From NCBI GenBank assembly GCA_035084275.1, contig CM068748.1:12772001-12836000 (forward strand): 64,000 nt of DNA, read 5' to 3'. Origin of the DNA: Hydrolagus colliei. Lineage: Eukaryota. A program made the translations under genes and the position numbers. Positions 31,536-54,673 of this stretch are shown one piece after another (position 1 is the first letter of the stretch; each line of letters opens with the position of its first letter). The notes beneath the pieces are model-generated. The model was given only the letters and a program-made list of their open reading frames with translations. It was not told the DNA's origin and made no database searches.

Positions 31536-31678
31536 TATGATAATCGACTATTTAATTCACCAGCCATTTCTCAAGGGATTCATTGAATAATATGTAACTG
31601 GGCAAAAGGTTTTCAACTTTTAATGGAAAATAATAATCAGAAAGAGGGGAAAATACAATCCTTGGGTCAATCTGTAAT

Positions 31679-33027
31679 ATGTACCTCTCCTCCCACTCCC
31701 TCTTCGAACCCCTCCAGTCCGGTTTCCGCCCTGCCCACAGTACAGAGACTGCGCTTGTGAAAGTCACAAACGATGTCCTCTCTATCTGTGACCAGGGTTC
31801 CCTCTGCCTCCTTATCCTCCTGGACCTGTCGGCTGCCTTTGACACAGTTGACCACGCCATCCTCCTCCACCACCTGTCCTCCGCTGTCCACCTCAGTGGG
31901 ACCGCACTCGCCTGGTTTGAGTCCTACCTCACAAATCGCCAGCAGTACATCTGCACAAATGGTTTTTCCTCCCACACTCACCCAGTTACCTGTGGGGTAC
32001 CCCAGGGATCCATCCTTGGCCCCCTCCTTTTCCTCATCTACACTCTTCCTCTTGGGGATGTGATCCGCAGACATGGGGCACAATTCCACATGTACGCGGA
32101 TGACACACAACTCTATCTCTCCACTTCACTTTGTGACCCCCAGTCCCCCGATGTTCTGTCAGCCTGCCTTTCGCACATCAGGGGCTGGATGAGCACACAT
32201 TTCTTGCAGCTGAATGTTGACAAGACGGAGGCCATACTCCTTGGCTCTCGTCAACGTCTCCATTCGCACAGCTGACTCCACCTTCCCGGCCTGCCCCTAA
32301 AACTCACCAAACCTGTGCGCAACCTTGGCATCAGGTTTGACCCCCAACTGTCCTTCCTCCCCCACATCTGGTCCGTCACCAGCACTGCCTTCTACCACCT
32401 CCGACGGATCGTCCGTCTCCGGCAATACCTCACCTTAAAAGCCGCCGAAACCTTGGTCCATGCCTTTGTCACCTCTCGGCTGGACTACTGCAACACCCTC
32501 CTTGCCGGTCTCCCCTCCACCACAATCCACAAAATCCAGTTTATCCAGAACTCTGCTGCCTGCATACTCACCCGCTCTAAGCTTCGCTCCCCCATTACCC
32601 CAGTCCTTGCCAGACTTCACTGGCTCCCTATCCCAGAGAGGATCGACTTCAAGATCCTCACCCTTGTTTTCAAATCCCTCCACTCCTCTGCACCCCCCTA
32701 TCTCTCTGATCTCCTCTCCCCACAACTCAGCACCCGCTGCCTTCGTTCCTCTGGGTCTGGCCTCCTCCATGTCCCCCGAGTCCTCCGCTCCACCCTCGGC
32801 GGCCGTACCTTTAGCCACTACGCCCCGAGGCTCTGGAACTCCCTTCCTCACTTGCTTCGCCTCGCCCCCTCTCTTCCCAGTTTCAGGTCACAGTTGAAGA
32901 CCTTTCTCTTCGACCGAGCTTTTGGTCACCTTCCTGCCCCTGGCTCGGTCCCGGGACCCGCTACTGTGAAGCGCTCTGAGATGCCTTCTGGCGTGGAGGG
33001 CGCTATATAAATCGAAGTTGTTGTTGT
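31679..33027 (+). mobile_element. 5'-truncated, near-intact L2 LINE; ORF2 reverse transcriptase with one in-frame stop
   Basis: QSGFRPAHSTETAL, LLDLSAAFDTVDH, GVPQGSILGPLLF, YADDTQLY, NLGIRFD, SRLDYCN, LHWLP, LWNSLP; ORFs 31679-32275 and 32315-33010 share a frame, separated by TGA at 32273-32275; (gtt)n tail. Confidence 0.98.
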
Positions 33028-51651: not shown

Positions 51652-52719
51652 ACTTCAGGATAGCTAGAAGTAATTTTATTTAGTAAATTGTTTTTGAAAC
51701 TGACTGTTTTGGTGTGTTTATGATTTGGATGAAGGATGCTGGTGTTCTATACTAAAACTCTTGCTCTTCTGAAACACACTGAAGCTAAGTGAAACATAGT
51801 AAAATATCTCGCACATCAGAATATTTACAGATGCATAGAATAAAGCTCCTTCTACTTTTTCCAATTGTATGTCTTAAATGCACTTGTACGGCACCAAATG
51901 ATATATTCTAATTTCTGAGTCATCCCTTCAGCCTTTCTCAATGAAACCCCAGTAATGTCCATAGATATACATAGCCCTTAGGAATTAAGTTTAATTTGAT
52001 TGAACCAGTCCCATATAGAAATCTTGAAGCTTGCATATATGAGTCTTTGAGATCTGAAAAGAGTTTTATGAAGTTCAATTTTGTGCAATTAGAAAAACAA
52101 AAGGGAAGATGTGACTCAAGGTTTAAAACAAAGCAAACCATTTGAAGATGAAAGTGGCATTTTGAACAAACAATAACAATTTGCATACGCTGCCCTACAC
52201 ATAGAATTGCATGTGAGAGGCATTCTAACCTAAACTCATAAAAAGAACCAGAAGGAATAATAATAGACTGCGAAAGCCATGAGTTTGAGATTACATGCAC
52301 AATACCTTGACCCTTTGGATGATTGAGTCATGAAACAGACTGCCTCAAAATACAACAAATAAAGGCCCTATTGAAATGTTCAAAAATGAATTAGATCAAT
52401 TACTGATTCAGCAAAGTGAGCATTATGTAGGCCTGGAGTAAAAACAGGAAAGTCAGACAAGGGCTTTGCGTAAATGAATCCTCCTGACATGAAAGACGCT
52501 CTGTAAATATAATTTTGTTGTTGTTCTTGAATAAACTATTCTCATTTCTACTTTGGTTAGACTATCAAACATGGTTCTAGACTAGATTTGAACAACAACA
52601 AGAAAATTACATTTGTATAGCTCCTTTCACGTTGGGAGGAAGTGTTTTCCTTCTTGCTATAGTAGGATAAGATAACCTCCAGTAACCTAATCACAGGGCA
52701 TTGTGTGAGCACTATCTAG

Positions 52720-54140
52720 TAGGGAACGGCGATATGGGAATTTTCCGGATATGGATATATCGGTTGGCTCATATCGAGATATACCGAAATACCGATATTT
52801 TCCGTTTTTTCGTACTGCGCATTCGGCGTGCGCGCGCATTCGGGGCCTATCTTCTCAGGAGGTAAATATATTTCTCTCTCTGTGTCTCTCACTCTCTCCA
52901 TCTCTGTGTTTTTCTGTCTGTGTCTCTCTATGTCTCTCTCCCTCTCTCCTCTCTCACATCCCCCCACATCTCTATCTATCTGTATATTATCACATCCACC
53001 CCGTCTCTCACCCCCCCCCCCCCCCGCCGTCCCTCTCTCGCACCCCCCACCCCCGTCGTCTCTCTCCCCCACCACCCCCCCAGCCGTCTCTTTCTCCCTC
53101 CCCCCCAACCCCGCCGTCTCTCTCTCCCTCCCCCCCAACCCCGCCGTCTCTCTCTCCCTCCCCCCCCAGCCGTCTCTCTCCCCCTCTACCCCCCAGCCGT
53201 CTCTCTCCCCCTCTACCCCCCAGCCGTCACTCTCCCCCTCTACCCCCCAGCCGTCACTCTCCCCCTCTCCCCCACAGCTGTCTCTCTCCCCCTCTCCCCC
53301 CCAGCCATCTCTCTCCCCCCCAGCCATCTCTCTCCCCCTCTCCCCCACAGCCGTCTCTCTCCCCCTCTCCCCCACCCCCAGCCGTCTCTCTCCCCCTCTC
53401 CCCCCCCCAGCCGTCTCTCTCCCCCCCCCAGCCGTCTCTCTCCCCTCTCCCCCTTCCCCCAGCCGTCTCTCTCCCCCTCTCCTCCCCCCCCCCCCCAGCC
53501 GTCTCTCCCCCTCTCCCCCCCCCCCAGCCATCTCTCTCCCCCTCTCCCCCCCTCAGCCGTCTCTCTCCCCCTCTCCCCCCCCCAGCCGTCTATCTGCCCC
53601 TCCCCCCAGCCGTCTCTCTCCCCCTCCCCCCAGCAGTCTCTCTCCCCCTCACCCATCCCCCCAGCCGTCTCTCTCCCCCTCTCCTCCTCCCCCCAGCCGT
53701 CTCTCCCCCTCTCCTCCCCCCCCCCCCAGCCGTCTCTCTCCCCCTCTCCCCCCCCAGCCGTCTCTCTCCCCCTCCCCCCAGCCGTCTCTCTCCCCCTCAC
53801 CACCCCCCCCAGCCGTCTCTCTCCCCCTCACCCGCCCCCCCCAGCAGTCTCTCTCCCCCTCACCCCCCACCCACAGCCGTCTCTCTCCCTCCACCCCTTG
53901 CATACCTGTATATTGTATTCGAGGACTATGAATACAAGATGGCGGCTTTGCACCTCGGTCTGTGCATTGTGTATAGAGATGAGCATTCTGGGTCTTGTAG
54001 TTGATTGTGCTCGCATCCCGATTTTTTACCTCGATATACCGTTTTTCGATATATCGTTATTTTTAAAATGTCTATATCGGCATATCGATATGAAAATCAT
54101 ATCGGGTTTTAGCGATATACCGATATGTCGCCGTTCCCTA
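52720..54140. mobile_element. Non-autonomous hAT-superfamily DNA transposon carrying a minisatellite
   Basis: 13-bp perfect TIRs tagggaacggcga (52720-52732) and tcgccgttcccta (54128-54140); 8-bp TSD ctatctag (52712-52719, 54141-54148); many subterminal gatat/atatc motifs; no transposase ORF. Confidence 0.93.
53000..53900. repeat. C-rich minisatellite with a variable unit of about 22-32 bp (cccagccgtctctctcccc(ctct)cccc)
   Basis: Tens of consecutive units with a near-invariant cagccgtctctct core and variable C runs. Confidence 0.97.
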
Positions 54141-54673
54141 CTATCTAGTCATCTGGCAATTTTTCATCTCTTAAAACATCAGTCAGCATGGCCCAACATG
54201 AAGACACATCACACCCTTAGATGTGTCACAGAATGGCAGGATGAAGGACTGTATGGGAGCTCTTTATCTCAGGCTCACTGTCATGGGAAACTACCCAAAG
54301 CTCTGCTACCCAGAATGAGGAACGCGGTCATTGGGCCTTTTGGTTACAGCAAAAATTCAGAGTGGTCCACAATGAACCTTTCAATATTTATTTCAATTCA
54401 CTTCAGGCTAGTTAGAAGTAACATTACTTAAGGATTTGTTTTCCTGAAACTGACTGTTTTAGTGGGTTTTATGATCATTCGATTGAGGGATGATACTCTA
54501 TCCTAAAACCGTCTTGCATCATGGGTTTCATTGTAAAATACCTCGCTCATCCAGAAGAGGTTAGTTTGGACACTTTTAAGCATGGCATTTTATACGTCAG
54601 TCACTTGGCTGACAAAAAACAATTTGTACCTTTCTCATGTAACTGCAATATCCATAAATATGTATAGAATAAG

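What the first reader, a model, noticed from the sequence alone, without database searches (positions are those of the whole stretch)
52712..54148. Young non-autonomous hAT element carrying a 0.9 kb G4-prone minisatellite
Seen: perfect 13-bp TIRs starting TAGGG, a perfect 8-bp TSD (ctatctag), dense subterminal gatat/atatc repeats at both ends, undecayed CpGs, and an internal (cccagccgtctctctcccc..)n array with extreme C/G strand skew. Known: 8-bp TSDs with short TIRs and subterminal repeats are hAT hallmarks. Inference: a recently mobile DNA transposon family in a window otherwise dominated by LINEs and SINEs, able to spread a VNTR that could form G-quadruplexes on the minus strand. An autonomous transposase partner should exist or have existed recently.
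Basis: partly seen in the sequence, partly recalled or inferred. Interest (0 to 1): 0.7.

Follow-up and report, generated by a model that had tools for sequence, protein, structure and literature searches.

The report
P-element minisatellite hitchhiking inside hAT transposon
This is one of thousands of copies of a small cut-and-paste jumping element that carries the remains of a second, unrelated jumping element, whose repetitive interior likely grew step by step into a long G-rich repeat predicted to fold into four-stranded DNA; it is an unusually readable example of known processes, not new machinery.

Summary
Window 52720-54140 is a non-autonomous hAT element with a 16-bp family TIR (one mismatch here, hence "13 bp"). 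The genome has 1,349 exact matches to its left end. TSDs are perfect in 45 of 48 complete copies, with consensus nTnnnnAn. Three-exon BED/DDE/hAT-dimer parents with the same TIR exist, none clearly intact. A related organism has the empty site.

It is a P-element MITE that inserted into an older hAT MITE. Free copies have their own TIRs, 8-bp TSDs and P-transposase relatives. The composite (at least 6,315 copies) survives in successive stages: P left arm lost, hAT end shortened, pyrimidine tract grown from about 80 to about 700-800 bp, hAT tips replaced by the parent's newer TIR. One locus shows unequal crossover between copies. G-quadruplex folding is predicted only. CpGs do decay, 4-10 times faster than other C/G. 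The captured P end also gained a THAP11/ZNF143 (M4) motif, possibly by chance. The scan noted what is likely this family earlier (e1-9268270); the part of that note I saw does not mention a P origin.

The parts
52712..52719 (.). Left 8-bp hAT target-site duplication
   Evidence: single copy at the empty site in organism B
52720..52735 (+). hAT TIR, 16 bp, newer TAGGGAAC type; corresponds to the end downstream of the parent's transposase gene (the gene would read on the minus strand)
52736..52845 (+). hAT subterminal region: GATAT-type repeats, then GCGCGCATT-type repeats. The outer ~50 bp match the coding parent, the inner part matches the older MITE (mosaic end)
52838..52845 (+). Surviving left copy of the 8-bp target duplication (ATTCGGGG) made when the P-MITE inserted
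   Evidence: both copies still flank the insert in 5 of 32 two-armed ancestors, 2 of them perfectly
52847..52997 (+). Interior of the captured P-MITE: (TC)n/TCTG tract. The P left arm that lay upstream was deleted at 52846/52847
   Evidence: 72% identity over 288 columns to the free P-MITE L347; two-armed ancestors
52998..53894 (+). Minisatellite, ~31 units of ~27 bp, C-rich on +, G-rich on - (two G-runs per unit); G4 predicted on the minus strand
53895..54007 (+). Right subterminal region and decayed right TIR of the P-MITE
   Evidence: aligns with free P-MITEs and with the end of a P-transposase-bearing element
53935..53946 (+). YY1-type motif (consensus recalled); improved by one change in the youngest subfamily
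53989..54001 (-). Perfect match to the M4 promoter motif ACTAYRNNNCCCR (THAP11/HCF-1, overlaps ZNF143 sites); absent from the free P elements aligned
54008..54124 (+). Shortened hAT subterminal region with GATAT-type repeats (5' end of the parent)
   Evidence: 89% identity to parents L112/L115 over 94-99 bp
54125..54140 (-). hAT TIR, 16 bp, one private mismatch at 54127
54141..54148 (.). Right 8-bp hAT target-site duplication

Best explanation
A non-autonomous hAT element with thousands of relatives in this genome, likely moved in trans by a three-exon hAT transposase with the same terminal repeats, carries as cargo the remains of a P-element MITE whose pyrimidine-rich interior likely grew into the minisatellite. 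Shown by sequence: TIRs, TSDs, coding parents, the empty site, free P-MITEs, and nested two-armed copies with the P target duplication. Inferred order: (1) a P-MITE with GA-rich tracts inserted into the GCGCGCATT repeats of a short hAT MITE; (2) one P target copy and then the P left arm were lost; (3) the hAT end on the other side was shortened; (4) the tract lengthened and homogenised into a 27-bp unit, likely by slippage and unequal exchange or gap repair between copies; (5) the outer ~50 bp were replaced by the parent's newer TIR, likely by recombination, giving the latest wave of ~1,300 copies. BED domains would bind the GATAT repeats, by analogy with Hermes. The array is most likely passive cargo, and G4 folding is predicted, untested.
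For: Family: 1,349 exact left-end 21-mers, control 0; 6,315 exact 25-mers of the P end, control 0. In 60 C1 copies taken from the left-end list, 48 were complete array copies: TSD perfect in 45, one mismatch in 2, five in 1; length 761-2,489 bp; T at position 2 in 43 of 60, A at position 7 in 44 of 60. Parents: L108, L109 and L115 (4.8-5.2 kb) have the same TIR and perfect TSDs; exons 984/411/531 bp in the undeleted copies; zf-BED and Dimer_Tnp_hAT; match to Hermes. Parent homology is limited to ~95-125 bp at each end. Empty site: one 174-bp contig of organism B lays on 52585-52719 and on 54140-54183 with left-flank letters in front. P origin: of 10 free elements with both CACTG ends, 8 have 8-bp TSDs matching at 7 or 8 of 8. 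Their long forms encode TNP-like RNaseH_C (E 6e-21) and GTP-binding (E 9e-35) domains. Series: median array 83, 227, 195, 840 and 661 bp, with divergence from group consensus 3.3, 2.9, 2.6, 1.9 and 1.4% across five stages (n = 12, 3, 18, 11, 50). Mosaic ends. Unequal crossover: L101/L212, young copy, spacer, chimera, identical spacer (398 of 398), old copy.
Against: No clearly intact transposase was found. Of 11 parents with all exon anchors, 2 are open throughout: L107 has ACG where the others have ATG, and L114 lacks the first catalytic Asp. No polymorphism was seen: both runs of organism A laid are filled at the right junction. The order of stages is read from coexisting copies and stepwise shared changes, not from a rooted tree. 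The groups came from different exact-match searches, which bias divergence downwards unequally. Array length did not rise in the last step (stage 4 vs 5, p = 0.44). 19 of 116 loci could not be classified. The L101 tandem rests on one assembly.
Confidence: 0.88

Rival explanations
1. The cargo is adaptive for the element: gains of host-factor motifs (M4/THAP11-ZNF143, YY1) and a longer G4-prone array make copies more accessible or easier to copy, so these variants out-replicated their ancestors.
For: Two substitutions create a perfect M4 match in the captured P end, and a later one improves the YY1-type motif (motif). The M4 form has 6,315 exact 25-mers against 126 for the ancestral form. Arrays are longer in stage 4 than in stage 3 (p = 0.0008).
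Against: The motifs were noticed after the fact, and any change fixed in a successful source copy would show the same pattern. The ancestral form is also older, so it has fewer exact matches. CpGs decay 4-10 times faster than other C/G, so copies look methylated. A second derivative without this cargo also reached high copy number. The array did not grow in the last wave.
Confidence: 0.12
2. The element is a plain internal-deletion derivative of the hAT parent, and the array comes from the parent's own purine-rich tract.
For: The parent has a GA-rich tract inside the same end and on the same strand; low-complexity matches of 66-70%.
Against: The unit differs. The unique sequence on both sides of the array matches free P-MITEs, not the parent. 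Two-armed intermediates exist.
Confidence: 0.03
3. The interior is a captured host promoter and first exon (it has promoter motifs and a splice-donor-like site).
For: M4 and YY1-type motifs, CpG richness.
Against: The same sequence is the terminal arm of free elements with 8-bp TSDs and P-transposase remnants, and the M4 match arose after capture.
Confidence: 0.02

Closest known systems
Non-autonomous hAT elements of the Ac-type target class (Hermes, Tol2, Ac/Ds)
   Same: Short TIR, 8-bp TSD with nTnnnnAn preference as for Hermes, subterminal repeats within ~100-200 bp of the ends (PMC10368747, passages); BED + catalytic core + dimerisation domain in the parent; best named relatives are 'ZBED1-like' proteins at 31-42% identity.
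   Different: The interior is foreign (P-derived) rather than a deletion remnant; the ends were updated together with the parent; closest protein found is only 50% identical.
Tandem-repeat-carrying MITEs (Xenopus miDNA4 and Xstir; oyster CgHINE; clam MITEs)
   Same: A non-autonomous DNA element disperses an internal array of variable copy number (reviews PMC12628747 and PMC9659126, passages).
   Different: miDNA4 is a Tc1/mariner MITE thought to have captured a pre-existing repeat. Here the carrier is hAT, the donor is a P-MITE, and the birth of the unit can be followed through surviving stages.
Vertebrate P-like elements (zebrafish Pdre, THAP9)
   Same: 8-bp TSD, CA..TG termini, internally deleted derivatives (bioRxiv 2024.03.22.586318, passages); P-type RNase H and GTP-binding domains.
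   Different: Different TIR sequence, about 30 bp; only broken copies found; its main legacy is as a passenger in hAT, with thousands of copies against at most 126 exact ancestral-type ends.

Membership tests
hAT superfamily (non-autonomous member) | Short terminal inverted repeats | tested here: met
   16-bp TIR across copies
hAT superfamily (non-autonomous member) | 8-bp target-site duplication that differs between loci | tested here: met
   45 of 48 perfect; empty site
hAT superfamily (non-autonomous member) | Partner with the same ends encoding a BED/DDE/dimerisation transposase | tested here: met
hAT superfamily (non-autonomous member) | No coding capacity of its own | tested here: met
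   Only low-complexity frames across the array; no parent coding homology
hAT superfamily (non-autonomous member) | Mobilisation by that transposase | not testable with these tools
   Inferred from shared ends and TSD pattern
hAT Ac family (vs Buster) | TSD consensus nTnnnnAn rather than nnnTAnnn | tested here: met
   T2 43 of 60, A7 44 of 60, p about 1e-11; Buster consensus from PMC3517528; that nTnnnnAn marks the Ac family as a whole is recalled
hAT Ac family (vs Buster) | Transposase falls in the Ac clade of a tree | not tested
   No tree with named references was built; ZBED1-like names are only suggestive
P superfamily (origin of the cargo) | TIRs with 8-bp TSD in free copies | tested here: met
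   8 of 10 free elements match at 7 or 8 of 8
P superfamily (origin of the cargo) | Same ends on elements encoding P-type transposase domains | tested here: met
   PF21789 in L337, L356, L357; PF21788 in L357
P superfamily (origin of the cargo) | N-terminal THAP domain | tested here: inconclusive
   A 33-aa first-exon piece looks THAP-like by eye, but Pfam gave no THAP hit
G-quadruplex-forming minisatellite | Four G-runs with short loops | tested here: met
   7 strict (loops up to 7) and 15 relaxed (loops up to 12) motifs; G4Hunter 2.0; two units are needed per G4
G-quadruplex-forming minisatellite | Folding in vitro or in cells | not testable with these tools
   Needs CD/NMR or G4 mapping
VNTR (allelic length variation) | Length differs between alleles at one locus | not testable with these tools

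The most novel reading that the evidence does not exclude
A non-coding transposon lineage evolved under selection to recruit host promoter factors. After a hAT MITE captured a P-element end, that end was converted stepwise into a perfect THAP11/ZNF143 (M4) site plus a YY1 site, and a G4-prone array grew beside it. Each gain preceded a larger wave of copies, so thousands of promoter-motif-plus-G4 cassettes were seeded in one lineage within about 2-3% sequence divergence.
Probability: 0.12. Interest if true: 0.65.

Novelty: new variant of a known kind. Interest (0 to 1): 0.4.

Why it matters
Non-autonomous hAT elements and repeat-carrying MITEs are well known. The value here is an almost complete fossil series in one genome. 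It shows where a minisatellite came from, how a passenger from one DNA-transposon superfamily was amplified far beyond its own copy number by another, and how a non-autonomous lineage stayed mobile by taking over its partner's new ends. It makes three questions testable: how arrays are born and grow inside mobile DNA, whether TIRs co-evolve by end exchange, and whether cargo motifs are selected. The family also supplies thousands of dispersed G4-prone arrays and at least one case of unequal crossover, and it gives lineage markers (absent at this site in a close relative).

Tried and rejected
1. The parent's GA-rich tract as source of the array: rejected.
2. Host promoter capture: rejected.
3. 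CACTA/EnSpm identity of the insert, suggested by CACTG ends: rejected, since free copies have 8-bp TSDs and P domains.
4. Escape from methylation: not supported. CpG transitions 12 of 300 against 20 of 2,100 at other C/G in the young group; 16 of 96 against 8 of 468 in the oldest.
5. Intact transposases: none clear among 16 hAT loci or the 3 P loci; these searches score only the best candidates.
6. Expression: no RNA holder listed, so no evidence either way.
7. Polymorphism in organism A: the left junction had no contig cover in X1/X5, so only the right junction is informative; the two runs share the same listed differences from the assembly and may not be independent.
8. ViennaRNA placed G4s on pairs of units, but its energy (-79 kcal/mol with DNA parameters) is implausible and is not used; ordinary hairpin folding is weak.
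9. Pfam missed the C-terminal P fragment.
10. A pattern from L228's left arm was private to that copy.
11. No tRNA genes in the window; no other member of either family in the window or 10 kb each side.
12. Ten paper searches listed no description of this family or of a P-MITE amplified inside a hAT MITE. Most hits were seen only as listings, no supplements were read, and Repbase/Dfam were not available, so the family may already have a library name.

Full report
Observation. The element spans 52720-54140 (1,421 bp) between two CTATCTAG copies. The ends are inverted for 13 bp, then one mismatch. Most other copies show a perfect 16-bp TIR, so the window copy has one private change at 54127. The ends are rich in GATAT-type words and CpG (o/e 2-3 against 0.32). 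The interior holds about 31 units of about 27 bp, C-rich on the plus strand. G4Hunter averages 2.0 on the minus strand. Each unit has two G-runs, so a quadruplex would need two units. The host is a 1.0-Gb genome; earlier notes of this scan call it a chimaera, which I did not test.

Family. The left 21-mer occurs exactly 1,349 times, control 0. I fetched 60 chromosome-1 sites from that list in order, skipping those already held. Of these, 48 were complete array copies, 3 were a different 1.9-kb derivative, 1 was a 3.25-kb array copy without the right unique segment, and 8 had no right end within 4 kb. TSDs were perfect in 45 of 48. Lengths ran from 761 to 2,489 bp (8-62 units). Target sites had T at position 2 in 43 of 60 and A at position 7 in 44 of 60, the pattern reported for Hermes (PMC10368747, passages) and unlike Buster (PMC3517528, passages). 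Copies differ from their consensus by 2.2% (right) and 2.9% (left); the window copy differs at 9 of 520 positions.

Partner. A search for the hAT dimerisation domain led to 4.8-5.7-kb elements with the same TIR; L108, L109 and L115 have perfect TSDs. They encode a three-exon transposase of about 640 aa with zf-BED and Dimer_Tnp_hAT domains, aligned to Hermes across two acidic motifs and CxxH. The closest protein found is 50% identical; named ones are mostly ZBED1-like. Of 16 loci examined, 11 had all exon anchors and 2 were open throughout: L107 has ACG at the start position, and L114 lacks the first catalytic Asp. The young parents are 97-99% identical to each other. The source was therefore active recently, but no clearly intact copy was seen.

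Age. One 174-bp contig of organism B covers the left flank to 52719 and the right flank from 54140, with a single CTATCTAG: an empty site. Flank divergence is about 24 differences in 1,115 laid letters, about 2%. Contig depth over the element tip is 636 in organism B against 329,000-516,000 in organism A. This is no copy number, but it suggests that the newest tip type is nearly absent from B. Both runs of organism A that were laid are filled at the right junction.

The interior is not hAT. Homology to the parent ends about 95-125 bp inside each tip. A 25-mer from the right unique segment occurs 6,315 times. I examined 40 of the first 46 listed sites (6 skipped as already held): only 3 had the new TIR, most had an older TAGGGTCC TIR, and some had a more complete interior. 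In those, the cargo has two inverted arms beginning CACTG, a G-rich tract on the left arm and a C-rich one on the right. A pattern that excludes hAT flanks gave 72 sites, mostly mutated family copies, but also free elements. Of 10 free elements with both ends, 8 have 8-bp TSDs matching at 7 or 8 positions, one at 6 and one at 4. Some are GA-tract MITEs of 690-800 bp, some are ~630-bp MITEs without tracts, and three long ones carry P-type RNase H or GTP-binding domains. Zebrafish P-like elements also make 8-bp TSDs (bioRxiv 2024.03.22.586318, passages). In 5 of 32 two-armed nested copies the P target duplication ATTCGGGG still flanks both sides and the right arm is ancestral. The window element matches free MITE L347 from 52844 onwards and again up to 54002.

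History (order inferred). Five stages coexist: two-armed insert; left arm deleted; hAT right end shortened from about 308 to about 138 bp beyond the motif; array homogenised and long; TIR switched to TAGGGAAC. Median array length is 83, 227, 195, 840 and 661 bp. Divergence from group consensus is 3.3, 2.9, 2.6, 1.9 and 1.4% (n = 12, 3, 18, 11, 50; 3 unclassified; 19 of 116 loci not parsed). Growth is significant from stage 1 to 3 and from 3 to 4, but not from 4 to 5. Changes in the P arm accumulate stepwise in the same order. The coding parents show the same old and new TIRs. The young element's outer ~50 bp match the parent while its inner part matches the old MITE, which points to end replacement by recombination. 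Sampling by exact patterns biases these divergences, and no rooted tree was built.

Consequences. At L101/L212 a young and an old copy, each with its own TSD, flank a chimera (old left end, young right end) and two identical 398-bp spacers; the arrays are 1,095, 366 and 897 bp. This is the signature of unequal crossover between neighbouring copies, seen in one assembly. Three more copies have discordant TSDs (L020, L048, L176). CpG transitions run 4-10 times above other C/G transitions, so copies appear methylated. The P arm gained a perfect M4 motif (PMC5006282, abstract; overlap with ZNF143/THAP11 sites in PMC3627581, passages) and later a better YY1-type site (consensus recalled). The ancestral arm has 126 exact matches against 6,315. 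Selection on these motifs is possible, but it was noticed after the fact, and a cargo-free derivative also multiplied.

Comparison and verdict. It works like, and by tested features is, a non-autonomous hAT with an Ac-type target preference. Repeat-carrying MITEs are known (PMC12628747 and PMC9659126, passages). Ten paper searches listed no description of this family or of this P-in-hAT route, but repeat libraries could not be checked. Verdict: a real, well-explained element and a new variant of a known kind, worth attention as a traceable case of minisatellite birth and cross-superfamily hitchhiking. Interest 0.4.

Noticed in passing
L131, L155, L169, L187, L188, L190-L197 (e.g. G000:C1:12563034-12564938): A second high-copy non-autonomous derivative (1.6-2.4 kb) with the same new TIR keeps the BED-coding first ~146 codons and the parent's own GA-rich tract; 1,727 first-look candidates.
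   Followed up: partly
L106, L113, L114, L115 (parents): Nested, older TIRs (TAGTGTCC / TCGTTTCC types) lie inside both ends of the coding elements, so the parent seems to have grown by adding new ends and ~850 bp of sequence with a purine-rich tract.
   Followed up: partly
L102 (G000:C6:57782000-57787000); L188: Two hAT elements head to tail share one 8-bp target sequence (GTGTATAG in L102; GTATATAG in L188): tandem insertion at the same site.
   Followed up: no
L336/L356 (G000:C1:20078086-20089197), L337, L357: Broken P-superfamily transposons; the C1 copy is ~11 kb with nested insertions and a 7-of-8 TSD; a ~630-bp P-MITE family also exists.
   Followed up: partly
L357:2300-2700: A P element ends right next to a GC-rich stretch whose translation reads like a gene start (MAAYVEILRREFP...), possibly an insertion at a promoter.
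   Followed up: no
window 52479-52640: Two inverted 53-nt arms (77%) of a very high-copy short repeat; millions of summed contig depth in all four runs, likely SINE/LINE tail pieces.
   Followed up: no
window 31637-33010: Reverse-transcriptase fragment (RVT_1, E 3e-27) of a non-LTR element, broken by a stop.
   Followed up: no
L119:4892-6910, L120:4828-6828, L121:3181-5160, L123:4799-6976, L125:4753-7302: Long open frames (660-850 aa) with hAT dimerisation domains from other hAT families or domesticated ZBED-type genes; a large second hAT family (L082-L090) also appears.
   Followed up: no
L228, L235, L264 and other stage-1 copies: The stretch before the array carries changing microsatellites (TCTA, TCCA, TCTG) in old copies that were reduced in later stages, while the neighbouring tract expanded.
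   Followed up: no
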